Shown here in pieces: positions 7,151 to 29,598 of a DNA stretch of 64,000 nucleotides. Made by a program: the position numbers and the translations under genes. The notes below the pieces were generated by a model, which saw only the letters and a program-made list of their open reading frames with translations, searched no databases and was not told where the DNA came from. The stretch spans positions 235,414,001-235,478,000 of the forward strand of contig OZ024742.1 of NCBI GenBank assembly GCA_964016885.1, read 5' to 3'. Source of the stretch: Eledone cirrhosa (lineage: Eukaryota). The first letter of the stretch is position 1, and each line of letters starts with the position of its first letter.

Positions 7151-8559
7151 GAGGTGGTGCCAGCAGAGATGGCAACAATGGTGATACCGAAGTATGAGAA
7201 GATATATAAAGCAATAGAAGATAGTCTCATTAAAATGTAACCTTGAAATATAAGTTGAGTTTTGTGAAGTGTTTATATGCATTTGTTCTGAACAAAGCAA
7301 TAATGGAAACAGGTGTGACTGACAAAGAAATATGTAGATGGAACTAGACTAATGTAAAATGGGTTATCTATGGTAGTTGTCCTACCATAGGTAACCAATC
7401 TTGTATGCAAGCCAGACATCCTGTTCTTTTCTAAGGTACATCTTTCTCACCCCTGATCTATAATCTATGTTACCCAGGTTATATCTTCTATACTCAGACT
7501 TCATTCTAAATGGTAGAATCTGTGCATATCTAGATTCCACTCAACTAGATATCAGCAATAAAGACTTCTAGTTACTCTGGCTGAAAATCTCACCCCTGTA
7601 CTCTAAATACATTTACCTTCTCTATCACCCCCCCCCCCCCCCCAACTACTAATGGTTCTTTGAATATATCTTTTCCTGCATCAAGAACATCAGTCTCACT
7701 TCACTCCTCCCCGAGGTCATCCTTCTAAACTTTAATGCTCACAACCCTTCCTAGCTCTCACACCTATTCTATATTTATTCCATCAGTACAGAAACTAAAT
7801 CTTTCGCAATCCTCACCTTTGTACACGAATTTGTTCATCACTGATGGAAAATAGACAATCTATTCACTTATGATCTCTTTCTTACCCCAAGCTTCTACCA
7901 AACCAACACTGTCTCTGCACATTTTGAGATATCTGAGTTAACCTATCATACACTTAAATACAATGCACTGCTCCCATCTTCCAGACTAAGCTGGAGCTCT
8001 TTTTCTATGCTTATTATCCCTAGCAGTGAATATTCTTCAGGAACACGTAAGTAGGTGACTGAAATCATCTTAGGCATATCCCTTCACATCCGACACATAA
8101 CCTTAACTTGTAACATCAAATTATTCATCCCCAACAAACGACTGCTTTTACCCAATACCACAACTTGCAAGATGATCATCCAAATCATGAACGATACTTC
8201 CTTACATGGAACAGCCCACGACCTCTCTTACTTGCACGAATTGTAGTTGATGCCATTATCACTGTGCACTGCAATATACATAGTAGCATTCAAGATTGGT
8301 TAGAATAATTGCTGGGGTCAAACATTAGCCAGAACATAGGATATGTAGTGATCAATTTTTTCGTATTCTATACAGTTTTGGGAGTTCTAGACTAGCGTAT
8401 AAGAGAAGAAAACCACAACACTTATATTGTTATAAATGACAGAATAGTTGAAGAATTTCTAGAATAAATCAAAGATTTGGAAAATTTTATAATCAGTAGG
8501 AAAAAGAAACGGTATATGGTCATACAGTTTTAAATCTCCCTCAAATCACACCATACTGT

Positions 8560-8800: not shown

Positions 8801-9842
8801 CTATGGGAAAAAGTATTGATAACGTAGTTGGCAAAACCCTATAATCTGACACGCTATAAATTTCATCGATGCAAGAAATAAGATTAGCGAATATCAATTT
8901 CAGCGACCCAAAACACCAGAGTTCTCGATGGTAACCAGTACAAAAAGGAAACGTTCAGCTAGTGCCATATATAATTGAAAACGTATTCTCTTGTATATTC
9001 TCCTTTCTATATTATATATATATACACACACACAGAGGCGGTACCATAGCCAATGAGAGCTATCCGAGGCGTAGTTATTTCTAGTTGATAATGGGTTTTT
9101 AAATATTTGGGATAATTAAATTTGCTAAGGTAAAATTCTATCGCAATCTTGGCACCTTTAATTTTTCAATGCATTGTATGGCTTATAAACTTACTTAAAT
9201 TTATATTTCCTATTCACCAATGCTTCAAGCAAACTACAGCACTCTGTTATATATATATATAAGAAATGTGTTTTTATTCACACTTGTATAAAAAAGCAAA
9301 CATTACACATACGATATATAGAAATAAGACGGATATACAGGTCTAGAACGTTTCATAGGATGGATTTTTTTTTTTGCATTATTAATATTTGTTGAATTAT
9401 TTTTGTAGTTTCATATTTTGCGTTTGTTGTTTAAAACGATTAGAATTATTTTGTTAGTTATTGTTTTGTTGTTTGAGATAGATGATGATATCAATAATAA
9501 TAATGTCGCAATAATAATTTGAAACAAATGACGACAATATTTTTATAGCAATAATTTTAAACAAACGAAATAAGGCTGTCCGCAGCTCGAATGAAATCAT
9601 ACAAACTGCAGTTTTAAAAAGTGTTCAATTCAAAGATCGTCGTCTTTAATTATAAATAAATTATTAAAAAGCGTTAGTAGATGAGTACCCAGCAGTCTTG
9701 ACCGTAATGCGGCCGTGTCCCCTTCAAGTGCCGAAACACTTGCATGAAAGGGACGTTCTCTTTCAAGACTTGTTACTCCACTCTCCTTTTAGTTTCTTCC
9801 TACGAGGCTTACTTGACCTCAGGCTAAATAACAACAAACTGG

Positions 9843-10132: not shown

Positions 10133-10639
10133 AGTTAATATATCAGATGTTTCTCGTTTAGAAAATGCATCTTTTATATTTTCCTTCATCTACATCATTG
10201 CTACTCCCTACCAGAACATGTCTTTTTTTTCATTTTCATTCTCTCTTGATGCAAACTTTGTAGTGAATCGAGTTTTTGGAAGCAAGCATGTCTTATTTAA
10301 ATTTCATCTAATCTTCAAACACCTGTATTATCCCCCCCCCCCCCGCCACATATTTATTTATTTATTTATTTTGTTTCCCTGAACAGCGATGTAGTTGTTT
10401 ATCAATGCTGATATTTATTTTGCGCTGCTTCAGCTTCGCATTTGACACTTTCGCTTTACATCCACTGACATAACCTGCATATTAAGAAGCTACACTATTT
10501 CTCCAAAAACCTAGTGGTGAAAGCAGCTAAAAGAAGCTGTGAAAATTTACAAGATAAAACAGTTGACAGTCATCTGGTTGTTATAACACACATATGTTTT
10601 ATCTCCTGCAATTAATTGGGATATATCTGAGGAAATGCT

Positions 10640-13250
10640 TAAGAATGTTTTATTATGAAAATAGCATTTATATAACTCATTGAACAATAATGATAAAGGA
10701 AAACGGTGGAGGAGGGAGGGGGGCAATTCACGACCAATTGTGACAATGGCCGCATCTCACCTGAGGGGTTAACTAAACACTTTGAGGCAAGCCAACACGC
10801 TCGCAGCATTACCACGAGTGATGGCGAGGCTAAGGTTCTGAAATAACCAGGCACCCTCACTGGCATCACTTGACACCTCAGTAAGGTGAGCCAAGAAGTT
10901 CGCTGTCAGCGGCCAACTCCACCAAACGTCTCGAATGCCATAGGCTGGAAAAAATGATTATTAGATAAATCCAGGAATTTCCAAATTTTATTCCATTCGG
11001 CAACGGAAGCTGTGACCCCCAGCTCCAGAACTGTGGAGATATTTATCCAAGCCAGGCCCCATTTGATGATTAAGTTTAACCCAGTATGGCGGGCAAAACG
11101 ACCCACATTCAGGTGGCAGGATAAATCATGTAGACCTGTGCAGTCGAGGGATTTAGGACAGTGGCATCTCAGATGTTGGCTTCCACTCGAAGTGCAATGG
11201 AGATGCAGAGCTTGTCCTGACTGAGAAGGCCACCAATGTTGGCCACAGGTAGGGCATCAATCCAGTCTCCCGAGAACTTTGTGTTTGGAGAAATTAAGCG
11301 GCACTTAGAAAATTGATCGGAATGATCAAAGAAAGAGTTGAACGTTTACCGCAAACGCAGATTGTCCCATACTCTCTACTTCTGTCTGTCCTCATCAGTA
11401 ATGGGAACTGACAAACCCGGCTCTCTCCACTATAGTAAAGCTTCATCCAACTCCCTGGTGGAACTAGTCCAAGTTGGGAAGGAGAGGATATCATCCACTA
11501 AAGGGAAGCAAACGTGGATGGAGAAAAGAAAGCAAGGTAGGGACAAAGATGTACATTTGTGCAGACTGAGACCTCCAAACTGTTTGGGTAAGGCAGCTTG
11601 GTAGCTGGACCCTGTATAACATTGACCAAATCCTCGAGCTCACTGAATATGTTGTTGAAGCATTGGAGAGATGATGAGATTTTGTAAGAAGGACTAACTA
11701 TAACTTAAGGATTAACAAATAAATCTGATGAATAAAAGAAACCTTGGTGAAGCTCAATAACTTTGAGGCTAGCCAACTTAGATACAAAGATGGACTCAAA
11801 GGCTTGGTCAGTAATAGAAGTCCCAACAGAGCACCACGCTGATGGGGCAGGGACTCTGTGAACAGGCCAACAGTCTTGATGTGAAGCTGGGTGGTTGAGG
11901 AACCAGAGCTCGTATTTGGAACTGTTGATGTGAAGGCCCCTATGACCCAGCTCCCCAATCATCATCTTTGCAGTTGCAAGCACCTTGTCTGGAGGACTCC
12001 TAAAGCAAGCATCATCCAGATACCAGACATTCAGATCCAGCTCAACTCCCATATTGGTGACGTCATCAATGCCCAGTGAGAAAAGTGCAGGTTCAAGCAG
12101 GTCACCCTGTGGCAGATAGTAGGATATGGTGACTGAAGGTGAGGTAGGAGGGTTCCTAATAGGCTGGCCAAGCAAAGAAGTAAAGCTGCGGGGCCCTCTC
12201 CTTTACTGTGGATGACATCCGAACTGATGGAATTGAAAGCATTCCTGAGATCTAGCTTGAGGATTACCTCGGGGCTTTCAGAAGGCAAGTTGGTAAATGC
12301 TCTGTTGGCGTGAGCAGCAGCCTCACAACCTAGCTTGGAACCCACCTCTAGCTGAATAGGGAAAAATTCGGTGGACAGGCTGTTTGAAATCAAAGACAGA
12401 CATACTCTCACAATGAGCTGTCGCAGAGTGCACCCAACTGCTATGGGGTGGAGGTCACTGTTGGGCTTTGTGAGGCCATAAAATTTAGCTCCAAAGAACG
12501 GGATGGATATAAGGGAGTACATTCTCAGACAAGAACAGGTTGATGAAATGAGTGAGGTTCTCCAAGAGCTCAAGGAGGCACCATCCTTGAGGTGCTGAGT
12601 TCGAAGACCATCAATCCCTGCCAGAGGGTATCGCCTTCCTGATGATAGCTGGGGTGAAGACAGGTTGCAATTAACCTGGTGGATCAGATCTGTGTAAGTG
12701 GTTATCCAGAGGAGCCAGGGGATGTTTCACTCTCAGTTGGTTGAGTGATTCTGTAGTGCATAGGCAAGGGATGACAGAGAGGAGAGGAGGCAAACAGCCC
12801 CTTTAATGTCAAATCCATTGAATTTGGCATTGACAGCCTACTTTAAGTTTGGTGATCATTCATTGATTGGAACTGAGTTAATCACCGACCTGAGTTGAAC
12901 AGTAATTGGGGTTGAATCGAACAACTCGAACTGCCATTTTTAAGGAAGATATGAGGGATCTGGATTTCATGTCGGACACGTTGAGAGAGACTAAGGGGAA
13001 CAAGAATAGTTTCTGTCAATTCGAGATGATGTTGGATATGTAGACGTTCTTCAACAGCTTGGAGAGAACATGGGTGAAACTGGTCTGAGCTCTCTTTGGG
13101 ATCCTGTTGATGAGTTCCAACTTAGACAAGTCAGTTGCAAAGTCCTCTACAGAAATCTGAATGTCAGAGTTAGGTTCTGGCCTGCAAATTGAATCAGAGC
13201 TGAAGTAACATTGATTTGAAACAATTATAACAGAGTCCACTTTTCATCTG
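10640..13250 (-). mobile_element. CRE-clade non-LTR retrotransposon (RT + restriction-like endonuclease), decayed, in the predicted intron of ZNF gene 2
   Basis: LINRIPK, PIAVGCTLRQL, GCEAAAHA, KLDLRNAFNS, QGD, WYLDD, FFQPMAFETFGG and C-terminal WLFQNLSLAITRGNAASVL, spread across frameshifted frames. Confidence 0.85.
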
Positions 13251-13880
13251 TTGAGGTGTAATGTATTTTTGTTTTCTTGGATTAGGTGGAATATATAATA
13301 ATTTTAAGGCGTCCTAGTGATATTCTGCCCAAGTAACAGGGGGTCTTCTCTGAGAGCCTTTATTCCATGATCCATTCACAGAATCATTATAATCCATTTC
13401 CACCTCAACTCTGTATCAAAGTGTCTTTTGTCTAAATATGTTCTAACTCTTTATGGCTATTCTAACTTTCAACACACATGTAATCAAATATCTTATCTAC
13501 AATAATCTTCACATTATCATTTTATTGTCCCTTATACCATATATTATCTTTTGTTACAGGTTTGCAGATGACTTTGATATAAATATATTTCACAGAAGAT
13601 TATCAACATACCAACATTTGAGCACTAAAAATATCTTCATCAAGTTGATGTTAGCCATTTTCTACAACTCACGGTTGAATGTGTGTGAAAGCAATAGTTC
13701 CTTCAGAAATGTTCACTTGATTTTCTGTACCCATTAAACGTGGAAGATTTATCCTTACTGATAGTAACTAGTTTAATGATTCTTTACTTTCTGGTTAATA
13801 ATTAAATTCTATATGAATAAATCCATTTGAAGTTCTTTAACAAACATCACCCTTCAGGGAAATATAGATTATAAGAAGTT

Positions 13881-14879
13881 ATGGATGTAAAGGCAGAGCC
13901 TGAAGATATTGATTCATCTAACGAGGCACAGGAAAATACAGCAGTTAATTTATACACGTGTGAATTATGTGGGAAGATATTTACCTCAAATAATTTGTTA
14001 TCGTCTCATAAATCTATTCACACAGGAAAATCATTACACCAATGTGATATCTGTGGTAAAACATATTCAGAAAGTAGCACTTTTGTTTCCCACAAATGTA
14101 ATCACTCTAGGGATAGACCATACCGATGTGATATCTGTGGTAAAACATTCACACAAAGTAGTAATTTCTCTCGACACAAACATATTCACACTGGAGAAAA
14201 ACCATACCATTGTGATATCTGCGGTAAAAGTTTTGCTCAAAAGGATGGTTTCTCTCGACATATACGTGTTCACACAGGGGAGAAACCATACCATTGTGAT
14301 GACTGTGGTAAAGCATTCTCAGAGAATGGTCACCTAGTTGCCCACAAACGTACTCATACAAGAGAACGACCATACAAATGTGATGTCTGTGGTAGAGCAT
14401 TCTCTGTGACAAGTAATTTAGTAACTCACAAACGTACTCATACAGGAGAAAAACCATATCATTGTGATGTCTGTGGCAAAGATTTTTCAATTTCCAGTTC
14501 TTTAGCTTCCCATAAACGTATTCACACAGGAAAAAGACCATACTACTGTGATATCTGTGGTAAAACATATTCAGGAACTTTTGAATTGTCTCGCCACAAA
14601 CGTATTCACACAGAGGAAAAGCCATTCGATTGTGATATTTGTGGTAAAACATGTTCTGGAAGTGCAAATTTGTCTCGCCATGTACGTATTCACACTGGAT
14701 TAAGACCATATAAATGTGACATCTGTGGTAAAACATTTTCACAAAATAGCCATTTTTCACGCCACAAACGTATTCACACAGGAGAAAAACCATTTCAATG
14801 TGATATCTGTGATGAAACATTTTCTAGAAGCGATAATTTAACTAAACACAAACGAAGCCACACAGAAGAGAAGTCGTAA
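13881..14879 (+). CDS. Poly-C2H2 zinc finger protein, 332 aa, 11 fingers
   Basis: 11 intact C2H2 fingers with canonical linkers; in-frame TAA at 13872. Confidence 0.95.
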
Positions 14880-15789
14880 ATAAATGATATCTATAGCCAA
14901 ATATTTCTACAATCGACAATAAATTTTATAATAAATCTATTCGTTTATATGGACTTTACTGCATCACTGCCCTCATCATCATCAATATTTTAATATCCAT
15001 TATTTAATACTGACTATTGGTCTGAGATTCCATTGTGTCATTTACATGCACTGAGTACTTGGTCAGGACACATTTCATGCATACAATGATGTTTACTCCT
15101 ATATATCTAGTTATGTTATAAATGTGAGGTCTCTATTAGTGATAATCAGAATGAAGCTTAGTGGTTGTTGCAACTTTATGTTTTAGCTGTGTTTATCATG
15201 ATTGGATATGATTAGATACAAAACTGTTTCCTAAATATATATAGTGAATGTATTTTTGTGTAGTTGAATGTGACTAGGTTATTTTGTCCCCATTGAAGAA
15301 TGTTCTATGTCATTGTTTTTGGAAATAGGTGAGCAATCTCTACCTCATACCCATACAACAAGTATGTCATCAGTTGACTGACTAGCAATCTGAATTTTAA
15401 TCTCTCTTGTGCCATGTTCAAAACCTCCATATTTACCAGTATATCATTCTGGTGTTACTTGATATGACCATTGAAATTAACTACCATAATGATGATATCA
15501 GCAACATCAATTGTTAGAGTAGGTTCAACAATGTCACCATTGAACCTTTTGCTTGTCTATTAATCCTACTTGTGGGATTTAGAGATCAAAGATAATCATC
15601 ATCATTGTTTTAACATTCACTTTTTTTAGTTTGTGAAAGTTGGACAAGACCTTTTAATGCAGCTTTTCCACAGCTGGGTAAGATCTTGTGGAAAACTTGT
15701 AGTTAGCCATGCATGCCAGTCTCTCCTTTCAATGCACCCAATGTACAAAGGAGACATATAAGTTGATATAACATGGCACAGTGTTGTTG

Positions 15790-15935
15790 CAATTCATTTT
15801 TACCAGACTGGAATAATGTGAAATAAAGTGTCTTGCTCAAAGACACAATATGCCACTCGATCTAGGAATCTAAATCACATCCATATACAACTGTGAACCC
15901 AAAATTCTAACCACTAGGCCATGTGCCCTCACGCT
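15790..15935 (-). mobile_element. tRNA-derived CORE-type SINE (related copies at about 25905-26025, 37228-37342, 45930-46038, 46660-46812)
   Basis: Reverse strand has an A-box-like TGGCCTAGTGG, a B-box remnant and TTGAGCAAGACACTT (CORE-like). Confidence 0.65.
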
Positions 15936-17329
15936 AGTTGACATGTGTCTGCTAGAACATTTCAATAATAAACCTACAATATTTATGAAATTGTCATTAA
16001 GTATGAGAACATAAATAGAATTATAGAAAAATAATCTCATTAAAATAAAGCATTTAAATATTAATTTGTGTTTTCTGAAGTGTCTGCTTTCATTTGTTCT
16101 GAACATTCTGTATCCTATAGACGTTATAGTTATCAGTGAGGTTTTTTCAGTAAAATAGTACATTTGAATGATGAGAATAGAACCAGTGATGAATGTGAAT
16201 AGCAATGGAATGAAATGTTTGGGTCATGTGCTGAGGAAGGAAGGAAGTGGCTGGGTAAGAGGAGTGATGGAAATGAATTTGAAAGGCCAAAATACATGGC
16301 CAAAAGTGAGGAAGGAAGAAATGTAAGCCAGGGGGCTGGTGATGAAGTGATGCAGATGATAGGACAAAATAGAAAATCTTGTCTTGGGACACACACGTTG
16401 GCCTCTGCTTTAATGAGGAAGATGGCCTTAAAACACTTGTATTTGTACTGTTGATGGAGGAGATATTTTGGTAGTTGGGTTCCTTCTAAATTTTATTAAA
16501 GAAAATTGTATTCTTACAGGTTATTATAAATGACTCTAATTTCATGTTTAATGTACCAATACAACAAATTAACAGTATCATTAATTAGAGTACTAGAGAG
16601 AGAGATATGTGGTAATAGAAGATGAGCAAGCTACTGAGAAATTGAAATTTTGGAAGATTTAAGAATTATTACAGACTATCCAAGGAAAAAAAAAAACGTT
16701 AAATGAATTATGCTTTATAAAAAATGTATTCGCAAAAATACTACAAAAGTAAATGAAGATGGTTTATAAGTGAACACCATTTGATACCAGCTTAAGTTTT
16801 GCGAGATTCACAATACACTAATTAGTACTTTGTTTGTCTTCACTCCACATAAAAGGTAGTTCGTTTTATTCAATACATAAGTTAATGGTGATTAACATTT
16901 GGGAGGAAAAAAACCACAACACGAACATTACCATAAATGACAACGGTGAAAGGGGATTTCTTTATCAACAAACAAATCGTGTGCATTAAATTATATAATG
17001 TTTTCGAGTTACAAAAGAAACAAATTAATAAAAAGAAAAGTCAGAAAGAAGAGGAATAACGTGCATACTCAAACCCCAAAACACGGGTGACAGCAACGCT
17101 AAGTGCTGGAATAATCATCATTACTGGATATTGTAGTAAGGTGAGTCGCCAACGATGACGCAATCATACAGATTAGTTTTAAAAAATTTATGAGTCATTC
17201 AAACTGATATAAATCCTTATCTTTGTTAAAAAATGAAAAGAAACAAGTTTACATTAGATACACTGTGTCTGGAACACTACTGAGGTAGGGATGATGAGAT
17301 TTTCTTTTTAATATGGATTTCATTTATTG

Positions 17330-17890
17330 TATATATGTCGACTATATTTTACAAACAGAAGTTATACAATGATGGAAATATGAAAAAAAAAAAAAGATAA
17401 AAACGAAATTACTAAAAAAAAAAAAAGCTGGGATGAGGGCAGATCTGGCTGTAGAGGAAAGGAAAATGCCAAAAGTGAGAAGGGAAGGGGAGAGGGTGAC
17501 AGGCTTTATGCCTAGGGCGAGCCAGTGTTTCGGCTGTGCTCCGCGGGCAAAACTGTAAAGGCGTTACTGCGTACAATGGCCAGTGACACCCGTTGCAACA
17601 GCCACCACACCACGCGTGGTCTTTCCCCAGACAAGCTTCTGACGTTCCGATTTTATGGAGGAGCTCGGCTGTACCGAGTCCAAGGACGTCTGAGGTCTCG
17701 ACGGTGACCGGACAAGCCCCAGTATTTGTTAGTCCTCTACATTGCAGACCGCAGTACTGGGGTTTGGAGGCAGAGAAAGTGTCACAGATGAAAGAATTAC
17801 CTCCTTCGAATAGGAAGAGGGTAATAGCGTCGGGGCGTTTGCCGTCTCTGCGATCGTGACCTGCTGGCTCTAGTTGTGATAGGAAGCCAG
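17330..17890 (-). mobile_element. CRE-clade retrotransposon 3' fragment (RLE domain)
   Basis: LEPAGHDRRDGKRPDAITL, PVTVETS and WLLQRVSLAIVRSNA motifs, then a pyrimidine/T-rich 3' UTR. Confidence 0.8.
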
Positions 17891-17894
17891 CTGC

Positions 17895-18140
17895 ATAAAT
17901 AATAACAAGGAAGGAAATGAAAATAAAGGAAAAAGGCGAGAGAAGATATGCACATTCAATCACGCATCACAGGAGCGTTTGAGTTTCCCTCTGTTTGAGG
18001 CAAACCAAGACATGGTATTGCCGCAGGTGATAGAGGCTAAGACGCTGGAATAGCCAGGTACACTAGCGAGCGTCACCTGATACATCGGTAAGACGAGACC
18101 AACTGGCAAGAACCTCGTTTGTCTGCGACCCAGCTGTCTA
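17895..18140 (-). mobile_element. Second short CRE-clade 3' fragment
   Basis: Reverse strand GGCTATTCCAGCGTCTTAGCCTCTATCACCTGCGGCAATACC...TGGTTTGCCTCAAA matches the 3' end of the 10640-13250 element. Confidence 0.7.
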
Positions 18141-18149
18141 ATTACTTTC

Positions 18150-19010
18150 TGTAAATTGTTTAATTTTTTCATAATATAAGGAAGGGCACATCAGATAATG
18201 TAATCTAACTATTACTACGACGAGAACATTCTGTGGAGATAAGGAAACGAAAAAGGTAGAGAAGAAAAAAAGCAACGAAAGAAAGGGAAAATGAGAACGG
18301 AGTGACAGATTGTACACTAGTCTGAGTGGTAGGTTTCAGCAGCATCCCGCGGACGAAATGGTGAAAGCAATTCCACGGAGAATGGCCGGAGACACTCGCT
18401 GCATCAGCCACTCTACTTCAGGAGTGTTGCTGTCTTCCCGATTTTGCGGAGGAAAAACAGCAGTGCGGGGATCGAGTACGTCTGCGATCTCGACGGCGCG
18501 AAAATGAAGCGGTCGGTCATGCCTCGGTATTTAGTTATCTTCCTCTGCATTGCGGCTGAAACGACAACGAATCGCAGCACGTGGCATCCCAGATTAGGGA
18601 TTTACCCGCCTCGAATGGGAAGAGAGTTATTTTGTCTGGGCGCTTACCATCACTACAGTCGAGGCCAGTTGTGACGGGAAGCCGACCGTGTTGAGGTTCC
18701 TTCTAATTATGTCGTTCAGAGCAACGTGTCGAAGGAACCGATCTGTGCTATGACGGCAGGATATAAGGTGTAGACCGAACTCGTCAACAACGGAATTTGT
18801 GCGGCCCACATAGGCGGCGACACTCCGATGCGAGTGCACTTATCAAGAGGGGTACCGAATCGAACCATTCGCCGCTGTTTGGCTGCGAAACGATGTTAGT
18901 TTAAGGAAGCCTCGGTCCGTTTGAAAGTTGACCTGCACTTGATGACGTTCAAGTTGTGTTGGACATCTGCATATTCGAGAGACAGCTAGGCCCTCGTCAA
19001 TTCAATCGAC
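18150..19010 (-). mobile_element. Third CRE-clade 3' fragment (zinc knuckle + RLE)
   Basis: [10 protein letters not shown]...[31 protein letters not shown] and WLMQRVSPAILRGIA. Confidence 0.8.
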
Positions 19011-19067
19011 CAGAGATGAATCTAGTTCTTGGTCCATCTCTGCTTCTGCTAGATAATAACAAACCAT

Positions 19068-19382
19068 ATAAGCACTCTCTACTGATTAGAGGTCAGTTCT
19101 AACCTTACCATCAATAACACTTCCGTTATGTCATTCTAACTCATTAACGAATTCCATAAACATTGTAGGTATATTATTATTTAATTACACTGTCTCAGTA
19201 ATAACTAATTAACTACTGTAGTTAGATTAAGATATTGTTCATTAACCAGAATAAAATAATTATATTCTGTTAGAAGTAGTAGAAAGTTCTGTTTAATCTA
19301 TCAATGTTCCCGTTAATTTTACGTCTTACTATTTCACTACATCTCATTATTTCATCTTAAAACTATATTATTATGTAAGTAC
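19068..19382 (+). promoter_or_regulatory. Putative 5' non-coding exons/promoter of ZNF gene 3
   Basis: CTCTACTGATTAGAG|GTCAGT (19092), ACTTCCGTTATG and AT|GTAAGT (19375); acceptor TTGCAG at 22052. Confidence 0.65.
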
Positions 19383-19979
19383 CATTAATTTATTTTATAG
19401 AAAACCTCTCTTTTGTATTTACATTTCTACTTCATCTTCACCCATTTTCACTTTCTGCTAAATTGTGTTTCTTTTTATTCTCTCCAAATTCAATATTTCT
19501 TTAATTCATATAAACATTCTAATTTCTTTCCTAATTTGGTAAAATTTGATAAAATCGTAGTAAATAAAAATGAAACCAACATCAATGGAAAATGACAGAA
19601 AAATAACTTGGCTCTTTTGAATTACCGAGAAAATAAATCTTGTGTATATTAACTGGCAAAATGCTAGCTTCTGTCGCCAAAAAAGGGGAATATAAAAGTC
19701 CGATTAAACTGAAGTTAAGCAAATAACGTTGAATTCGATGCAAGAGATGGATGTTCTTTCTAACACCAATCACGTTTACAGTGTGGAACTGGGTGGTCCC
19801 ATTATGAGGAGTGTCTGGCCAGTTGGCCGTACCGTATCTCTCTCATAGCGGAACTGTATTTGGAAGCTTGGTGGTTCTGCTATGGGGAAGGTCTGGTGTG
19901 TTTGGGCTGGGTTTTTAACGACTGCTGGATGGTCTTCCTGAACCTCAACTATGTTTACACCACCATGTTTACAGTATAT

Positions 19980-21240
19980 ATCGTCATCATCATCGTTTAA
20001 CGTTCATTTTCCACACTAGCATGGGTTAGACGGGTTGTCCCATATGAGGCAAGTTGGTCTCTTACTTATATAGAACTGTTTCTATGGCTGGATCCCCTTC
20101 CTAACGCCAACCACATATACAGTGTGGACTGGGAGCTTTTTGACAACTACACGACCACTTTACAGTGTGGGCTGGGTGCTTCTTGTGACACCTGTACGAC
20201 TAGCTTACAATGTGGACTGGGTGCTTTTCGTCGTGACTCCTACACGACCATTTTACAGTGTGGGCTGGATATGTTTTGTTCACAGTGTAAGGGTGGTGGG
20301 GATATAGTGGTTAAGAGGTGCCTACTAAATGTATGTTTGAGTCTGTGCACATGGGAAAGTGTGTCTTCTGTATTACTGCGTTATGCTAAATATCTTGATC
20401 CTGTGTCTTTGTCTTTGAGAGGTTCAGCTGCGCAAGGTCAGCTTTTATCATCTCGTCTCAGGTCTTCCTGCTCCATAGCTTCCATAGATTTTGATCGCCC
20501 TGCACCTTTTTATACAGCTGTCACCCTTCATACGCATCATATAACCATACCAATGCAATCTCTTCTCTAGAATACTGCATCTGACTCTTCTTATACCTAA
20601 TTTCTTTCTTAGTTCATTTACGCTTGGCTGTTCATTTCTTTCCAGTCTTCGCAGGTCCTTTGCACACAGTGCCCAGGTTTCACTATCCTGCAACATTACT
20701 GTTTGTATACATGCATCATACAATCTGCCCTTCATTTTAAGGAAAACACCTTTTATAGCAGTTGTAGCTCTGAACTTTCTCCATCCCATTCTTACTCTGG
20801 CTACTGTACTTTTGGAACACCCTCCTCCACTGCTGATTTCATCACCCAGGTAACAGAAACTCTTGACTATTTCTACAGAGCCGTCTGGGCATTTGAAGGA
20901 GCAAATATCCTGTGGGCATTTGTTACTTACTGCACCTGACCATCGGCTGTATATAAAACCTACGTTCTTTGATAGCCTGCCTGTGATCCCACTGCATCTT
21001 TTATGTACCCATAGCTGAGCAAGGTCATTTCTCAGAGGGGATCTGGACCCTATTTTCCTTTTTACATACTAGAACTTTAGTCTTTGACAAGTTAACTTTA
21101 AGACCTTTTGATTCTGAGTTTAAGACTGGCTACCCTTGGGAACTTCTGTATGCAGACAACCTAACTCTCGGCTGAATCTATGGCAGAATTAGAGAAAAAA
21201 TTCCAAACCTGGAAGTATGGCCTAGAATCAAAAGGTCTTA
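19980..21240 (-). mobile_element. RTE LINE 3' portion with tail
   Basis: KGRLYDACIQTVML.DSETWAL...RLHWYG (ORF 20448-20789); (CAT)n tail at 19981-19995; ~46 bp subrepeats at 20110-20290. Confidence 0.85.
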
Positions 21241-22440
21241 AAGATATATATATATATATATGTATATATGTGTGTGTATATGTATATAATGTGGAAAGTG
21301 GTATCTGTAAGAAGGCTAACACAATACAAAATGGACAGTAAGCTGAAGGTATATTACATGTGTAGCTTTTGGTAGTTGTAGGTAAAGTTAAAGTACAAAG
21401 AGCATTTAAAAGCAATTTTCTCTGCTAAAGCTTGGGTTAGATTTGTTGAACCTATGACAAGCTTCTTCACTTTACCCTATAGTCTTCATCTTCCTGCTGG
21501 CTTTCATTTCTTTCACCATCATTTTTAGGCATGTCTTTCTTGGTTTTCTACTTCCTTCTACATTCATTTCCATCACTCCTCTCACCTAGTCACTTTCATC
21601 TTTCTTCAATACACATGTGTGAATTTGCCTCTGTCTTTGCTTCACATTTGACACTGTTAGCATGATCGGTGATGTTAGTTTATGTTCTGTGGTTCAGTAG
21701 ATTAATGAACCGTACTATAAAACAAGTAAGGATTGGTGCCATGAAGAGCATTCAGCTATAAATTAATGCCTTATAAAGTTTCATCCAATCCATGCCAACA
21801 CGAAAAAGCAAACATAAAGACAATGGTGATCATCATCATGATATAAGATGTAGTGACCAGTGGTCTTTGAAGGGCTTTTTTCTAAGATTCACGTTAGCAG
21901 TTCTCATTATGCATTTCCACTATAACTCTATATATGAGTAGCTGTTCACTCTAAATGCATTATTTCTTCCTGGCTATTCTATTTTTCATTACATATTAGT
22001 CAAATATCTTTTCACCAATAATCTTCATCTCTTATGTTGTTTTTTATTGCAGGTTATCAGACGAAAATGAGATAAAAATATGTCACTGAAGATTATCAAC
22101 ATATGAATGCTTGAGGGCCAAAATGATGTTAACCACTTTCTACAAACTTTGTTTGAGTAGATGTGCAAAATTTCTTTGGAATTGAGAAGAGTTGCACAAA
22201 TTCCTAGATAAATGTTTACAAGACTTCAAAGATTTCCCATGAAGTGTTAACTGTCTTATGTGCAAGGACATTAATTTCTGGAATTATTTTGTTAATTGGA
22301 GCTTATTATCACTTGCTGATTGTTGATATAAGATTCTGTCCTAATGAATCCATTTGAAAGTCTTTCTTAAGAGCCAAAATATGATCAGACTTTAACAAAG
22401 GTCATTTAAACAGCAGAAACATAAATTATAAAAGAAAGCT

Positions 22441-23763
22441 ATGGAGGAGAAAGCAGAACCTGAAACTAATCTGACACAGGAAAATACAGATGTTAGATCC
22501 CACTCTTGTGATATATGTGGGAAGTTATTCACTACAAGAAATTTGTTATCTTGTCATAAATGTATTCACACAGGAAAAAAACTACATCAATGTGATGTCT
22601 GTGGTAAAACATTCTCTCAAAGTAGTCATTTCTCTCGACACAAACGTATTCACACAGGAGAAAAACCATATCAATGTGATATCTGTGGTAAAAGTTTCTC
22701 TCAAAAGTATAATTTCTCTCAACATAAACGTGTTCACACAGGGGAGAAACCATACCGTTGTGATGATTGTGGTAAAGCATTCTCTGAAAATGGTGGCTTA
22801 GTTGCCCACAAACGAATTCACACAGGAGAAAAACCATACAAATGTGATATCTGTGACAGAGCATTTTCTGTACCTGGTAATTTAGTTACTCACAAACGTG
22901 TTCACACAGGAGAAAAACCATACGAATGTGATGTCTGTGGTAAATCATACTCTGGAAGTTCCAATTTGACTACCCACAAACGTACTCACACAGAAGAGAA
23001 TCCATACCACTGTGATATTTGTGATAAAAAATTTTCAGGGAGTGCTGCTTTGTCTCGCCACATACGTCTTCACACAGGAGAAAAACCATACCATTGTGAT
23101 ATCTGTGATAAATCATTCTCTCAAATTGCTCATTTCACTCGACACATACGTATTCACTCAGGAGAAAGACCATACCACTGTGATATATGTGGTAAGACAT
23201 TTCCTGAAAGTGGTCATCTCTCTCGACACAAACGTATTCACTCCGGGGAGAAACCATACCAATGTAATGTCTGTGGTAAAGCATTCTCTGAGAAGGGTCA
23301 TCTAGTTGATCACAAACGTACTCACACAGGAGAAAGACCATACAAATGTGATATCTGTGGTAAAGCATTCGCCCTTTCTAGCACTTTAGTTTCCCACAAA
23401 CGTATTCACACTGGAAAAAGACCATACTACTGTGATATGTGTGGTAAAACATATTCCCAAAGTGCTGATTTGTCTCTCCACCAGCGTATTCACACAGAAG
23501 AAAGACCGTATGACTGTGATATTTGCGGTAAAACATGTTCTGGAAGTGCTAATTTGTCACGGCACATACGTATTCATACAGGCTTAAAACCATACCACTG
23601 TGATATCTGTGGCAAAACATTTTCTCAAAGTGGTCATTTCTCTCGACACAAACGTATTCATACAGGAGAGAGACCATATCAATGTGATATCTGTAGTGAA
23701 ACATTTTATCGGAGTGATAATTTAACTCAACACAAACGTATCCATACAGGGGAGAAATCATAG
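22441..23763 (+). CDS. Poly-C2H2 zinc finger protein, 440 aa, 15 fingers
   Basis: 15 intact C2H2 fingers; in-frame TAA at 22429. Confidence 0.95.
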
Positions 23764-26101
23764 CTTGTTAGATATTTTCTACAAATATCAATATATCTTA
23801 TAGTAAATAAACTTATTTGTATGGAGTTTACTGTCATTATCATAATCAATTGTTTTAATATTTATTATTCTATCTCAGATCCCATTCTGTCATTTATATG
23901 TACTAAGGACAGCAGGCCACTTCCTTGATGGCACTAAGATTTTGTATTCTGAAAAATATACACCAAATTGATAAACGTTAAGTACACTGGTTTGTTTTTA
24001 ATCAAACCTCTTGCCATTGTCTCACGAGAAATATGCTCCCTGTGGTTCTACATCTTCATGAAAAACACAAATTATATATTATATAATCTAACACTATCCT
24101 GAACTAAGCTGTAGAATATATCAGCTATTTTCTAGACTTGATCCATCATGCTGAGTTCACTGTAATTGTCCATTTCCAGTGCATTTTCTTTGTTGCAGTT
24201 GATATGATTATGTTAGTTATTTCGGTTAACACCAGATTAATTAAAAAACATATTTAATACAGTAACTATGTATATTGACACTTTCAACATAACAGCTATC
24301 CTTGATAGACCTCTTGCTTTCTTTTCCATTATCTCTTTATTAGACTTATTTACCACACTGAAGCTAACCTTGATAGCTGGACTATTTGTTTATTCCACAT
24401 GGAGTAATTCGTCATTATCCCATTCATACTTAGCCTGAATTTTTGCAACAGTGGACTCCATTAAAGACATCCAAGGACTTGATGGTGGTGTTAAATCAGA
24501 TGACAGATTAAGTCTACCATCCAAAAAACATGTTGGCTTCCTCAGAAACCATAAATTTATAATCAATAAACCAATGACGTTTTAGTGAACATATAAATAT
24601 ATTTCATTAATGTCCATTGAAAGTACATATACAGCTTGAGTTAATATTATAGAGAAACTCATTTCCCATATGTAATGTAACTAAAATTTATGTTGACAAA
24701 AACAGAAACTAAATTAATAGTCAATACAACAATGTACATATTTTTCAAATTGATCTTCACCAGTAACTGTTTACTTTAAAGCTCTTAGTTATTTTATAAT
24801 TTGTTGATAAAAACTAAATATAGTGTTTATGACAGTTGAACAATATTAATTGATAATGTATGATAATTATTAGGTTATGGGAACATACATTGAAGAACCA
24901 TTGGTGTTAACCTTTGATATACCTGCTTCTTTTAGAACATCTTTTTTAACTCTTTTGTTACCACAGTCCTAATGAAATGCACCATTTGGAAGGATTTACT
25001 AAAATTATTAATTATTTCATTGTTAAGATAGTATTTGATTATGGTGGAAAGATTTTAGAGATATGCAGCTTTGTATTGTAAAACCAGGGATGGTTTCAGG
25101 CTGTTTCATATTAAAAGAATTAAACTCTACTTTTGACACCATCCTTGCATTTGTATTATCATTTAAAAAACCTATCAGATTTCTAAATAGGATACCATCT
25201 CTTTCATTTACTACAGAATTGTAAATGCCTTAGGCAGTACAATTTCAAAAAGAGTTAAAAACTTGTCAACCAATTTTTTAAATATAACTGTTGTTAATGA
25301 TAGCTTTTAGAACTTTTTTGTAAGTATTCTTTTACTTGCTTCAGTCCTTTGACTGCAGCCATACTAGGGCACAGCTTTGAAGAGATTTGGTGAATCATAT
25401 TGACCCCAATACTTATTTTCAAGTCTGATACTTATTTTATCCATCTCTTTTTGGTGGATTGCTAAATTATGGGACACAAATATGGGCATTGTGACCACTG
25501 AGGATGATGTCAGGTCAACTGAGCTCCTGAAAAAACTGCTGATTGACGACCTCAAGGATGTGTTTCACATGAGGTGCATGCTCTGGTACTGCCATGTCGA
25601 GCGCAATGAGGGCTGGATCAGCTAAGTGTTGAATATCAATCCAGGAGGCAGTAGAGACCCAGGAAGACCAAAAAGGACTCGGATGGATGTTTGTTGGGAT
25701 CAAGCTAGGCTTGGCTTGGCCTGGCCCAAGTGAGACCAGCTGCCAGAAAAACATGGAGTGCTGTCAGGCAGGACCCAACCCTACTTAAGGATTAATTTGC
25801 GTCCTACATAATCAAAAACTGGATGATGATGATTTAATGTTCATTTTATCTGCAAGCAAAAGTTGGACAGACCAAGTCAGTACTTAATTAGGGCTTTCTA
25901 AACAGTTTCTGTCTACTGAATTTCACTCACAGGGGTCAGTAAATGACACTAGCCCAAGATGTCACACAGTGGGATTGAAGCTGGAACTTATGATTGTGAA
26001 GCAAACTTCTTAACCATTCAGCTATAGTGCATCCACTAAGGAGTTGAAGGCTACCAAAAATCTCTTTAGATGTGTGTGGGGGGGGGGGGGGGGTCTTGCT
26101 T

Positions 26102-26791
26102 TAATATTTCTCATTGAAAATTTTCTTAGCTATGGTGACCTACCCCAGATAGGTTACAACTGTATATGCCTTACAAAATGCTTTAATCCTTTTGTTAGCA
26201 TATTTCTATTACATGCATTGTATTTCAATTAATGAAAAATAATATTTCTCATTGAAAATTTTCTTAGCTATGGTGACCTACCCCAGATAGGTTACAACTG
26301 TATATGCCTTACAAAATGCTTTAATCCTTTTGTTAGCATATTTCTATTACATGCATTGTATTTCAATTAATGAAAAATAATATTTCTCATTGAAAATTTT
26401 CTTAGCTATGGTGACCTACCCCAGATAGGTTACAACTGTATATGCCTTACAAAATGCTTTAATCCTTTTGTTAGCATATTTCTATTACATGCATTGTATT
26501 TCAATTAATGAAAAATAATATTTCTCATTGAAAATTTTCTTAGCTATGGTGACCTACCCCAGATAGGTTACAACTGTATATGCCTTACAAAATGCTTTAA
26601 TCCTTTTGTTAGCATATTTCTATTACATGCATTGTATTTCAATTAATGAAAAATAATATTTCTCATTGAAAATTTTCTTAGCTATGGTGACCTACCCCAG
26701 ATAGGTTACAACTGTATATGCCTTACAAAATGCTTTAATCCTTTTGTTAGCATATTTCTATTACATGCATTGTATTTCAATTAATGAAAAA
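26102..26791. repeat. Five apparently identical 138 bp tandem repeats
   Basis: Unit starts TAATATTTCTCATTGAAAA at 26102, 26240, 26378, 26516 and 26654. Confidence 0.95.
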
Positions 26792-28029
26792 TTGGTGGGG
26801 CTGGGGGTTTCTAAGATTATTATTTCATTAAAATGGTATTTGTAATATAACAAAAAAGTTTGCTTATAAAATTAAGTTGCAAAATTTTAGTTTAAAAATA
26901 GGTGAGTTTAGTATCAAAATGGTTAAAAGTTTTTCGAACTTCAATTAAGACAACTAAGCCATTTTTGTGACAATTAGCATTTCTGTTAATGCAGGTGTTG
27001 GGTGCCACAATATTCCCTGGCTAGAACAGTTATTAGTACTGAAAAATAGATTTGTGGAAATTATTCATGTGACTATTATGGAAATAACGAAGAAGGGGAA
27101 ACAACTATGTGTAGATCTGAAAATATTTTAATGAGAATTTTCTCCTTTAATAACCCAAAGTAAACATTTCAAACTTTTTATACGATTTTTTAAGTAGGTG
27201 TAAAGTACATTGTTCCATTATTGAACAGTTATGTGATAGCCATCATGCTCCGTGTTATGTGAGCGTTTTTTAAAATCTATTTTCCCTAAATTCCCAGAAA
27301 TATTGAAATAGAGATGGAATTCTAATTCTGGACCTAAATATTATATGACTTGCATCTAATCTGGAAAATATTTTCCCTGAGTCGTGTGTAATTTTGTTCA
27401 ATATTATCTGTGGGTGTTATACTACAGCCTTAGAGGAACGGAATCATTTAAGTGGGCACTTCTGGATGGTTCTGCTGCTACAAGCTGACTGATGGTGTAG
27501 GGAGTGATCAAGTGTATGCCTTGCATTGTGAAATGTCACTGTCCAGGTAACTATAGCTAATCTTAACATTGTTCCTATTAATGAAATTGTTGTATTTATG
27601 TGTGACTGGGAAATACTCAACAGGGATAAAATACACCTGGCTATGTTCAAGCTATCGCGTGAGATGGACTTCTTTCTGGTAGTATCAATTGGAAAAAATA
27701 CTCGTACTTCTAATTTAAAGGGCCAGCCATGTCACGCTGAATCTCCATGAGAATTGTTTTATGGACAAACCTGTTTGTGGAATGCACAGTAATTTAACAA
27801 GCAGGCTATACCGTTGTTCAAACAACTGGAACACTTGTCATAGGGGGTCGAACATACACCCATTCTGTAAAGAGTTTTTGTTCTCACCAAATTCACTTCT
27901 TAATACTGCATCGATCTCATAGTATATTAAAAAAAACATCGATATATTTTGAAAAGAATAGAATTATAGTTTATAAATGGTTTGAAAACTGATAGTGAAA
28001 TTGTTGGTTAGCGACTATTTTGTTCCTTC

Positions 28030-28550
28030 CCACATCCTGGATACGACAGTGAAGGCGAGGGCCACTACATCTGTAGATGAATGGAATAAAATTCTAAAAT
28101 ACTAGGAATTATTGGCAAACTGTTATTTCAGCCTGTGCTATTTGAGACGTTTGAGGGAGCAGGGCCGCTGACAACGAGGTTCTTGTCAGTGATGGCGATT
28201 CGCTTTACCGACACATCAGATGATACCTATACAAGGGTTTGGTAATTTCAGTGCCTTAGCCTCGCTATCATCTGGCCTTATGGACATATCACACGATGCT
28301 GGTGAGTGTGCTTGGTTATTCAATCGCCTTAGTCTCGTTATCACCTCCAGCAATGCCGTGTGTTGGTTTGCCTCAAAAATTATCTGATGGAAACTCCAGC
28401 ACCCACCTCCCTTGTGGTATGTGCATGTAATCTACGTTTTCTTTTTCTCTTTTCGTATAAATTGTTTATTTGTATGCATAATTATATAAATTTTTGTTTT
28501 GTTTTTGTATGAAGTTATATGTATATCGTAAATGAAAAACATAAAAAAAA
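28030..28550 (+). mobile_element. CRE-clade 3' fragment(s), same family as 10640-13250
   Basis: EWNKILKY, FQPVLFETFEGAGPLT, FQCLSLAII, a second WLFNRLSLVITSSNA end, and a T/A-rich tail. Confidence 0.75.
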
Positions 28551-28559
28551 AGAAATTAA

Positions 28560-28960
28560 GCAATGAAAGAAAGGGAAAGTGATGACAGACTGTACACTAG
28601 TCTGAGTAGTGTTTCAGCTGCGCATCTCGGCATCGGTGAAGGCAATTCCGTTGAGAATAGCCAGCGACTCTCGCTGCAACAGCTACCCTACCTCAGGCAG
28701 GGTGCAGTCCTCCCGATTTTGCGGCCAAGTATTTGGCTACCTTCCTTTCCTCCACATTGCAGTCGCAGTACTCGGGGTTGCAACCGAAGAGACAAGGTTG
28801 AAGGCAGAGAACGAGTTGCAGTATGTGGCATCCCAGATTAGGAATTTACCTCACACGAATGGAAAGAGTTATCCCGTCGAGGCCAACTGGTTGTTGTTGT
28901 TCAGAGCGGCGTGCCGAGGGAACCGCGCTGCGTTATGACAGCATGATAGTGGGTGCTATT
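28560..28960 (-). mobile_element. CRE-clade 3' fragment, same family as 18150-19010
   Basis: Shares TGTACACTAGTCTGAGT and GTGGCATCCCAGATTAGG with the 18310-18620 region; RFPRHAALNN knuckle remnant. Confidence 0.8.
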
Positions 28961-29280
28961 ATGTGAAATAAAATGTCTCGTTCTACGAGAGGAGAAACCG
29001 GCAACAACATCATTGTCATAAATAACAACAGTTGAGAAATGTTTATAGATTATTGTTAAAAAGAAAACATTAGATAACAAAATCTTAGATATATTTCATC
29101 ATCATTTTACGTTCGTTTTCTCTGCTAGCAAAGGTTGAGTGAAAAAAAAAGCGGAATATTTGTTGGAACACCTTCATGATTGATCTGCTGTATTAAGGCT
29201 AACTTTGGATTAAACAACAATAAATATGGATACATTAGGTAAATGTAATCCTAGACATCAGGCTGAATAAACAACAACTA

Positions 29281-29598
29281 TATAGCACTCTTTACTAATT
29301 TGAGGTCAGTTCTTTCTTTACGATCAATAACATTTCCGTTATGCTATTACTCAATTACTACTTTACTCGATTACTAAATTTATAGATTCTATATACATAT
29401 TATTCCTTCTTAACCTTTATTTACACTGTCTCAATAATAACTAATTAACTACTGTAGTTAGATTAAGATATTGTTCATTAACTAGAAGAAAATAATGATA
29501 TTCTGTTAGAAGTAGTAGATAGTTCTGTTTAATTTTACGTCTTACTATTTCACTATATCTCATTATTTCATCTTAAAACTATATTATTATGTAAGTAT
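29281..29598 (+). promoter_or_regulatory. Putative 5' non-coding exons/promoter of ZNF gene 4
   Basis: CTTTACTAATTTGAG|GTCAGT (29305), ATTTCCGTTATG and AT|GTAAGT (29591); acceptor TTACAG at 32448. Confidence 0.6.

What the first reader, a model, noticed from the sequence alone, without database searches (positions are those of the whole stretch)
10640..29310. CRE-clade retrotransposons piled up at the 5' ends of the ZNF genes
Seen: six or seven CRE-type 3' ends from at least two families lie within about 18 kb, and I found none elsewhere in the window. One is in the 5' intron of gene 2. Three are stacked head-to-tail and end about 60 bp before the exon-1 motif of gene 3. Two or three lie tail-to-tail about 330 bp before the motif of gene 4. 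A conserved upstream landmark (GA.AAAACC..CAAC..CATT..CATAAAT.ACAAC at about 8405, 16905 and 28990) lies left of the stack in unit 3 but right of it in unit 4, so the related copies were not simply co-duplicated. Known: RLE-encoding CRE elements are often target-specific (e.g. trypanosome SL-RNA arrays). Inference: these elements target, or are preferentially retained at, promoters of this ZNF family, which would be an unusual TE-ZNF coupling.
Basis: partly seen in the sequence, partly recalled or inferred. Interest (0 to 1): 0.75.

Follow-up and report, generated by a model that had tools for sequence, protein, structure and literature searches.

The report
Promoter-seeking CRE-like retrotransposons in an octopus
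Decayed copies of two abundant jumping-gene families are strongly over-represented just upstream of predicted gene starts in this octopus-like genome, most densely at a family of zinc-finger genes but also at unrelated genes, likely because they land in open promoter DNA and are tolerated best beside redundant gene copies.

Summary
The pile-up is real. Six clear and two faint CRE-like copies lie between 8.9 and 29 kb, and none elsewhere in the window; random background predicts about one. It recurs outside the window. At 30 paralogous ZNF promoter modules in other clusters, 9 of 24 copies lie within 1 kb upstream (2.4 expected; 0 of 3000 permutations), in mixed families and orientations, while other repeats thin out there. 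It is not ZNF targeting. The families have roughly 50,000 dispersed copies; 0 of 58 genome-wide copies sit near the module, and their flanks share no target sequence. Unrelated genes show the same bias: 6 of 36 promoter-like starts against 6 of 280 random windows. ZNF starts keep longer pieces (8 of 30 against 2 of 36). Best reading: a general promoter-proximal, open-DNA insertion bias, plus weak purging at redundant ZNF paralogues and landing beside older copies. Both families carry an N-terminal PHD finger, a candidate chromatin guide (untested). The scan noted a similar pile-up at another ZNF promoter in this genome (e1-9987525). TSS positions and CRE-clade membership are inferred.

The parts
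10599..13215 (-). Family B CRE-like non-LTR retrotransposon, decayed and antisense in intron 1 of ZNF gene 2. It runs from the last residues of the PHD finger through RT and RLE to the 3' UTR, with a ~140-bp deletion at ~11020 that removes the RLE RPD motif.
   Evidence: nhmmer 1372+358 bits; 5' extent by alignment with long copies; deletion; CpG o/e 0.34
8912..8964 (-). Faint family A fragment between the landmark and the module of gene 2
   Evidence: 15.4 bits, E=4e-4; frame reads ...ERFLFVLVTIENSGVLGR; below the 20-bit counting threshold
16960..17159 (-). Faint, old B-like 3' end with tail; the most distal member of the unit-3 stack
   Evidence: 13.9 bits; its tail matches regions upstream of two RING genes that also carry faint B ends (L319, L328) and one cluster locus
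17214..17896 (-). Family A 3' fragment (RLE C-terminal part and 3' UTR)
   Evidence: 445.8 bits; CpG o/e 0.81
17892..18135 (-). Family B short 3' end, wedged head-to-tail between two A copies
   Evidence: 75.7 bits
18178..19049 (-). Family A, divergent subfamily, 3' fragment including the CCHC knuckle; its 5' end abuts the gene-3 module
   Evidence: 384 bits; subfamily placement; CpG o/e 1.16
28009..28378 (+). Family B 3' end with an internal duplication, tail-to-tail with the next copy
   Evidence: 170+52.8 bits
28517..28956 (-). Family A, same divergent subfamily as 18178-19049 but truncated further 3'
   Evidence: 112+57 bits; sister to the gene-3 copy with support 0.86; 76% identical to it, the same level as to unlinked subfamily copies
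19050..19440 (+). Shared ZNF promoter/first-exon module of gene 3: CTCT..TAGAG inverted motif, CTTCCG (ETS-like; name recalled) and a GTAAGT donor at 19375. Paralogues at about 1530-1880, 9795-10215 and 29235-29680.
   Evidence: 34 matches in about 8 places in the genome; alignment; CTTCCG in 22 of 29 modules; an X9 contig lays on 19158-19374 and carries 21 further letters
8405..8445 (+). Upstream landmark, unit 2
16905..16945 (+). Upstream landmark, unit 3 (left of the stack, about 2.2 kb from the module)
28988..29035 (+). Upstream landmark, unit 4 (right of the CRE pair, about 330 bp from the module)
13875..14879 (+). ZNF gene 2 coding exon, 11 C2H2 fingers
22432..23763 (+). ZNF gene 3 coding exon, 15 C2H2 fingers
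32898..33548 (+). ZNF gene 4 finger array, 8 C2H2 fingers

Best explanation
These are decayed, mostly 5'-truncated copies of two abundant, dispersed CRE-like RT+RLE retrotransposon families that are over-represented just upstream of predicted gene starts in general, likely because their integration favours open, unmethylated, A/T-tract-rich DNA, and likely kept in larger pieces at these ZNF genes because redundant paralogues tolerate them. Shown: the copies, the upstream excess at ZNF and non-ZNF starts, the absence of a shared target sequence, and the clumping of copies. Inferred: (1) target-primed insertion into accessible promoter DNA about 0.1-1 kb upstream; (2) the T-rich tail of an inserted copy is itself a favourable site, so later copies land beside it head-to-tail or tail-to-tail, and the landmark is pushed away from the module in units 2 and 3; (3) selection removes or trims most copies at single-copy genes and fewer at tandem ZNF paralogues; (4) the N-terminal PHD finger may help engage chromatin, though it lacks the tryptophan of H3K4me3 readers.
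For: ZNF modules outside the window: 9 of 24 copies lie within 1 kb upstream against 2.4 expected, p<1/3000; downstream 3 against 2.0, not significant. CRE coverage is 9-11% at -1000..0 and 0-2% distally, while other repeats fall from 30% to 18% to 10% toward the module and CpG o/e peaks at 0.85. Non-ZNF promoter-like starts: 7 of 37 (6 of 36 counting a paralogue pair once) against 6 of 280 random windows, p=8e-4. In the 40 loci fetched blind: 5 of 40, p=0.006. ZNF against non-ZNF promoter-like starts: 9 of 30 vs 6 of 36, p=0.25; for copies of 80 bits or more, 8 of 30 vs 2 of 36, p=0.035. Clumping: 13 further copies in 138 kb of flank around 58 genome-wide copies after dropping 3 that look like inversions or duplications of the same element, p=2e-6 to 0.002; three of these are tail-to-tail at 205-295 bp, like unit 4. 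A/T runs are 2.3 per kb upstream of 19 CRE-free modules against 1.4 at random, p=0.02. Upstream copies keep CpG (o/e 0.75-1.2) and the intronic copy does not (0.34), which matches octopus gene-body methylation with scant promoter methylation (PMC9476566, passages). De novo insertions of all six Drosophila transposons studied favour promoters and are later purged (PMC10018349, abstract). PHD finger: Pfam PF00628 over cut-off in a natural A copy, and seen by eye in B copies.
Against: Flanks of genome-wide copies are not CpG-richer than random DNA (median 0.66 vs 0.62, p=0.59), so most copies are not at promoters. Twenty 10-kb regions upstream of E2 exons held only 2 copies, and none lay at the roughly nine CpG peaks I judged by eye to be promoters of multi-exon E2 genes. 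None of the promoter-like Ras starts carried a copy. Against all N-terminal loci, ZNF modules are richer (9 of 30 vs 11 of 98, p=0.02). The promoter-like rule (in-frame ATG and CpG o/e of 0.6 or more) was set after I had seen part of the data, and it uses the ATG, not the TSS. Four of the six non-ZNF copies are short (26-42 bits). Old fixed copies cannot separate insertion bias from retention. The A/T-run excess is not significant against sites 2 kb further upstream (p=0.26). No target-site duplications were resolved.
Confidence: 0.55

Rival explanations
1. ZNF-biased coupling: the upstream excess is mainly a property of ZNF promoters, by insertion preference or by selective retention, for example copies kept as regulatory sites through which TE-binding ZNFs control their own genes. 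The non-ZNF signal is a weaker, separate effect.
For: 9 of 30 modules vs 11 of 98 other N-terminal loci (p=0.02); longer copies at ZNF modules; another ZNF promoter in this genome shows a similar pile-up (e1-9987525, unchecked note); octopus ZNF motifs are predicted to match TEs more than non-repetitive DNA (PMC10547256, passages).
Against: No significant difference from promoter-like non-ZNF starts (p=0.25). Family, orientation, distance and retained segment vary from gene to gene, unlike a co-opted element. 21 of 30 modules lack an upstream copy within 1.3 kb, and the second ZNF subfamily in the window has none.
Confidence: 0.2
2. Self-seeding only: CRE copies insert in or beside older CRE copies, as reported for Cnl1, and the stacks grew from chance founder insertions that gene duplication then multiplied.
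For: Abutting head-to-tail stack in unit 3 and tail-to-tail pair in unit 4; about 5-fold clumping genome-wide; Cnl1 is reported to insert into copies of itself (PMC12810828, passages); modules 3 and 4 are sisters, and so are their adjacent A copies; this was the reading of e1-9987525.
Against: All 9 upstream copies at the other clusters are solitary within 1.3 kb of their module, of different families and orientations, with no shared flanks, on scattered branches of the module tree. Solitary copies also sit at unrelated gene starts. Self-seeding explains the stacks but not the position.
Confidence: 0.12
3. Survival or detection bias: copies insert at random, but these GC-rich elements decay more slowly in unmethylated promoter DNA and so stay detectable there.
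For: The intronic copy has lost CpG (0.34) and the upstream ones have not; several non-ZNF copies are near the detection limit.
Against: Eight of 9 ZNF upstream copies score 80 bits or more. Random CpG-rich regions are also unmethylated yet show background density. Copies in CpG-poor introns were readily found (L230, L245). Other repeats decline toward the module.
Confidence: 0.08
4. Sequence-specific targeting of the ZNF promoter by the RLE, as SLACS and CRE1 target SL-RNA genes.
For: RLE elements of the CRE, R2, R4 and NeSL clades are mostly target-specific (PMC4640811, passages); the module is a conserved multicopy sequence.
Against: Tens of thousands of dispersed copies; 0 of 58 near the module; distances from -117 to -881 and both orientations; no shared 3' flank.
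Confidence: 0.03

Closest known systems
CRE-group RLE non-LTR retrotransposons (SLACS, CZAR, CRE1/2; Cnl1, MoTeR, FoTeR)
   Same: RT followed by a CCHC knuckle and a PD-(D/E)xK-type endonuclease. Natural copies read C-x1-C-x9-H-x3/4-C-x7/8-[RH]H-x20-E-x10-[RH]PD-x15-D, close to the SLACS/CRE signature printed in PMC12857005 (passages). 5'-truncated copies and head-to-tail stacks, as for Cnl1 (PMC12810828, passages).
   Different: Not confined to SL-RNA genes, telomeres or any one sequence; tens of thousands of dispersed copies; an N-terminal PHD finger; three spacers differ from the printed signature by 1-2 residues, and the RHD/N triplet reads RHA/RHV/RHT.
EhLINE/EhSINE of Entamoeba histolytica
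   Same: Non-LTR elements without targeted insertion, whose hot spots depend on local DNA structure plus a short nicking preference (PMC1635306, abstract). That EhLINE's endonuclease is of RLE type is recalled.
   Different: No promoter bias in the abstract I read; different lineage; no nicking consensus was determined here.
Promoter-favouring transposons (Drosophila P, I and LTR elements de novo; fission-yeast Tf1 and maize Mu, recalled)
   Same: Excess near gene starts without a strict target sequence; promoter preference followed by purging (PMC10018349, abstract).
   Different: Here the excess survives in old fixed copies while other repeats are depleted, and the element is an RLE-type LINE.
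TE-rich tandem C2H2-ZNF clusters (octopus ZNF expansion, zebrafish FZNF, mammalian KZNF)
   Same: Tandem ZNF paralogues with many TE insertions (PMC10547256 and PMC12988792, passages).
   Different: The published octopus link concerns timing, SINEs and predicted ZNF binding. The passages I read do not mention CRE-like elements at ZNF promoters.

Membership tests
RLE-type non-LTR retrotransposon | Reverse transcriptase domain | tested here: met
   RVT_1 matches at E=9.5e-5 to 0.02 in natural decayed frames, all below Pfam's cut-off; QQGD and YLDD motifs present
RLE-type non-LTR retrotransposon | C-terminal CCHC knuckle plus PD-(D/E)xK endonuclease downstream of the RT | tested here: met
   Motif order and spacing in L043, L022 and L005
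RLE-type non-LTR retrotransposon | 5'-truncated copies with variable A/T-rich 3' tails | tested here: met
RLE-type non-LTR retrotransposon | Target-site duplications | tested here: inconclusive
   Longest shared words of 5-11 bp, at chance level in decayed A/T-rich flanks (part of the output was cut)
CRE clade | RT phylogeny groups with SLACS, CZAR, CRE1/2, Cnl1 and MoTeR | not testable with these tools
   No named CRE proteins were available: 55 homologues were unnamed or hypothetical, PDB gave no match, the Atlas gave no answer
CRE clade | REL signature C.X1-3.C.X7-8.H.X3-4.C.X9-10.RHD/N.X19-33.E.X9-21.R/KPD.X12-14.D/E (PMC12857005) | tested here: inconclusive
   All key residues in order; spacers 1/9/3-4/7-8/20/10/15, so three differ by 1-2 residues and RHD/N is RHA/RHV/RHT
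Site-specific CRE elements (SLACS/MoTeR type) | Insertion at a fixed position in one multicopy target sequence | tested here: not met
PHD finger | C4HC3 pattern | tested here: met
   PF00628 at 25.7 bits against a cut-off of 24 in L364; best PDB matches UHRF1 and WSTF PHDs; B-family fingers seen by eye in decayed copies only. The window's own copy keeps only the last residues.
H3K4me3-reading PHD finger | Aromatic cage, including Trp two residues before the His ligand (signature recalled) | tested here: not met
   Family A reads F-F-H and family B N-Y-H/Y, where the aligned PHD of 1we9 reads W-F-H; binding itself is untested
C2H2 ZNF promoter | The module marks the transcription start of a downstream ZNF array | tested here: inconclusive
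   A same-strand array lies within 9 kb at 20 of 30 modules outside the window and 4 of 4 inside (some blocks end early); CpG peak; contig ends at the donor and acceptor. No raw RNA reads, so no TSS.

The most novel reading that the evidence does not exclude
A PHD-bearing lineage of CRE-like RLE retrotransposons has traded sequence-specific targeting for chromatin-guided insertion just upstream of Pol II promoters, and octopus ZNF clusters act as its main long-term refuge, so that these elements repeatedly remodel the promoters of the gene family thought to police transposons.
Probability: 0.25. Interest if true: 0.75.

Novelty: new variant of a known kind. Interest (0 to 1): 0.5.

Why it matters
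RLE retrotransposons of this group are known mostly as site-specific. A dispersed lineage with a promoter-proximal bias and a PHD finger would show how such an element can switch from sequence to chromatin or DNA-structure cues. It also gives a measurable link between transposons and the octopus C2H2-ZNF expansion, an open debate (PMC12988792, passages): about a third of the sampled ZNF promoter modules have been hit, mostly independently. The ZNF-specific version would matter more, but the controls here point to a general bias amplified by relaxed selection.

Tried and rejected
Expression and TSS: no RNA holder was listed. The four runs laid were contigs only, so they show no start or strand; the X9 contig ends at 19374 and 22053 are a hint, not proof. 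Protocadherin control: the PF08266 search at E<=1e-12 gave nothing, so no non-ZNF tandem family was tested. The first homologue search, for longer proteins, gave two irrelevant hits. The ESM Atlas gave no answer for three queries. A PDB search with an RT frame found no match. The TSD search was inconclusive. An age gradient along the unit-3 stack could not be read, because best-hit identities are 68-77% and subfamilies differ; the most distal copy is the faintest. Four A copies at 5-kb spacing on C4 turned out to be a 96-98% identical tandem unit with no ZNF array or module in the 10 kb read. Whether the A copies at genes 3 and 4 are one insertion is unresolved. For: sister modules, sister copies, same strand. 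Against: different 5' ends, opposite sides of the landmark, identity no higher than to unlinked copies, and the gene-4 copy is not among the 40 scored matches of the gene-3 copy. I lean about 60:40 to independent. 10-kb upstream regions for the DnaJ genes were not obtained, so those loci have 1.5 kb only. Literature searches listed no paper on CRE-like elements at cephalopod promoters or on PHD fingers in RLE elements; Repbase and subscription journals were not searchable, and no supplements were read.
Full report
Setting. The window lies at G000:C3:235414001-235478000 in a 3.0-Gb genome. It holds tandem C2H2-ZNF genes: four on the plus strand to 33.6 kb and three of another subfamily on the minus strand at 48-59 kb. 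The best named homologues of the retroelement protein are from Octopus vulgaris (65% identity), so I call the genome octopus-like; that is an inference.

Observation. Searches of the own genome with two window copies returned dispersed matches on many chromosomes (168 matches from 150 scored of 12,867 candidates; 81 matches from 40 scored of 3,895). I built DNA profiles from 29 loci each, leaving out the window's copies (trimmed). They place six clear copies and two faint ones between 8.9 and 29 kb and none elsewhere. Forty evenly spaced 10-kb regions held 7 copies of 20 bits or more, four hits falling in one region: 17.5 per Mb, 95% range 7-36, or about 52,000 copies genome-wide (21,000-108,000). 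The window is therefore far above background.

What the elements are. Natural frames show an RT (weak RVT_1 matches) followed by a CCHC knuckle and an RH..E..RPD..D endonuclease, close to but not identical with the SLACS/CRE signature in PMC12857005 (passages read). Longer copies of both families begin with a PHD finger (Pfam over cut-off for family A; nearest solved structures UHRF1 and WSTF). It lacks the tryptophan of H3K4me3 readers (signature recalled). Earlier notes e1-9858066 and e1-9553339 gave me this lead. Clade membership could not be tested by phylogeny, so 'CRE-like' is the supported label.

The ZNF promoter module. The stretch 19045-19440 has 34 matches in the genome, grouped on C1, C3, C4 and C7. 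In 400 kb fetched around them, outside the window, I found 30 modules, 20 with a same-strand ZNF array within 9 kb. CpG o/e peaks at the module and falls into the gene, as expected of an unmethylated promoter before a methylated body (PMC9476566, passages). One X9 contig lays on 19158-19374, stops at a GTAAGT donor and carries 21 further letters; another starts at the acceptor at 22053. This suggests that exon 1 ends at 19374. The run is not on record as RNA and no TSS was seen.

Test 1: is the pile-up repeated? Yes. Of 24 copies in those 400 kb, 9 lie within 1 kb upstream of a module (2.4 expected, 0 of 3000 permutations) and 3 within 1 kb downstream (2.0 expected). The nine comprise 3 A and 6 B, 5 sense and 4 antisense, with nearest edges from -117 to -881. 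Their flanks share only three matches of 25-58 bp, and their modules are scattered on the module tree, so they are mostly independent insertions. Other repeats, defined by matches to at least two control loci, fall toward the module. The clusters as a whole are also richer than random DNA (24 vs 7 in 400 kb, p=0.003; p=0.09 without the nine).

Test 2: is it ZNF-specific? Largely no. None of 58 genome-wide copies has the module within 1.5 kb, and one has two ZNF motifs; their 3' flanks share no target (output partly cut). As controls I took 99 N-terminal exons of DnaJ, Ras, E2, SDR, RING and mitochondrial-carrier genes. Thirty-seven looked promoter-like (in-frame ATG and CpG o/e of 0.6 or more), and 7 of them had a copy within 1.3 kb upstream, two being one duplicated pair; so did 3 of 45 with low CpG and 2 of 17 without an ATG. 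Against 6 of 280 random windows, 6 of 36 gives p=8e-4, and against the ZNF rate of 9 of 30 it gives p=0.25. The 40 loci fetched last, before their content was known, gave 5 of 40 (p=0.006). Results against this reading: the promoter-like rule was post hoc; no promoter-like Ras start had a copy; E2 upstream regions had 2 copies in 200 kb; and strong copies are commoner at ZNF modules (8 of 30 vs 2 of 36, p=0.035; lengths p=0.09). So the bias is general, with a ZNF surplus of longer remnants.

Test 3: why stacks? Copies clump genome-wide: 16 further hits in 138 kb of flank, 13 after dropping three likely rearrangements of the same element. Several abut a neighbour's tail, including three tail-to-tail pairs. 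In the window the landmark is 330 bp from the module in unit 4, 1.5 kb in unit 2 and 2.2 kb in unit 3, and unit 2's first 300 bp after the landmark align with unit 4's stretch up to the module, so insertions went in at different points. The A copies beside genes 3 and 4 remain ambiguous.

Mechanism. I favour insertion into accessible, A/T-tract-rich DNA just upstream of promoters, secondary landing beside older copies, and weaker purging at redundant ZNF paralogues (0.55). The positional facts are shown. Insertion preference as against retention, the role of selection and any role of the PHD finger are inferred. All four intronic copies near a module are antisense (p=0.125), which fits purging of sense copies but is not significant. 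Precedents are promoter-biased de novo insertion with later purging in Drosophila (PMC10018349, abstract), structure-guided hot spots of EhLINEs (PMC1635306, abstract) and self-insertion of Cnl1 (PMC12810828, passages).

Literature seen. Passages: PMC4640811, PMC12857005, PMC12810828, PMC10547256, PMC9115989, PMC12988792, PMC9476566, PMC5348765. Abstracts only: PMC10018349, PMC1635306. No supplements were read; repeat tables in cephalopod genome supplements may list CRE-type families. The nine searches named under Tried and rejected listed no paper on this pattern.

Verdict. A real, reproducible positional bias of a CRE-like, PHD-bearing retrotransposon lineage toward gene starts, strongest at ZNF paralogues but not exclusive to them. 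New variant of a known kind; interest 0.5.

Noticed in passing
L364:2092-2355 (+); L365; upstream parts of L049, L057, L060: Both CRE-like families start with a basic C4HC3 PHD finger that lacks the H3K4me3 tryptophan; family A has an Asp two residues before the first Cys.
   Followed up: partly
window 19050-19130 and 29 paralogous modules: A conserved CTCT-n-TAGAG inverted motif followed by GGT(A/C)AG and, about 30 bp on, CTTCCG (22 of 29): a candidate family-wide ZNF promoter code. The first GT looks like a splice donor but may be part of a binding site.
   Followed up: partly
window ~11020: The long B copy has a ~140-bp deletion that removes the RLE RPD motif; its closest relative (L032, 89%, 3.7 Mb away) does not share it.
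   Followed up: partly
window 26102-26792: Five perfect 138-bp tandem copies right after a poly-G run: a very recent duplication or an assembly artefact.
   Followed up: no
L013, L014, L015, L023, L034, L046, L049 (3' flanks); window 30856-31166: A tRNA-like SINE (label inferred) often sits just after the A/T-rich tail of CRE copies; the same repeat occurs at several places in the window.
   Followed up: no
L241:2668-3152: Six tandem ~76-bp repeats derived from the 3' end of family B, in a Ras-family gene region.
   Followed up: no
L368 (C4:53.38-53.40 Mb): A ~5-kb tandem unit, 96-98% identical, each copy carrying a family A fragment; no ZNF array in the 10 kb read.
   Followed up: partly
window 13346-13948 vs 32235-32887 and 21906-22493: Gene 4's second-exon region is closer to gene 2 (77%) than to gene 3 (64%), while its promoter module is sister to gene 3's: the units look like mosaics.
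   Followed up: no
window 4197-5780: The finger array of gene 1 changes frame, so it may be a pseudogene or carry frameshifts.
   Followed up: no
window 20393-21243: Decayed fragments of another, RTE-like LINE (label inferred from the translation) in intron 1 of gene 3, with relatives at 41.6-42.4, 51.4 and 61.7 kb.
   Followed up: no
upstream parts of L022, L049, L057, L060 (loci L365, L362, L367, L360): A 66-92% shared non-coding stretch precedes long copies of both families: possibly a common 5' UTR lineage.
   Followed up: no
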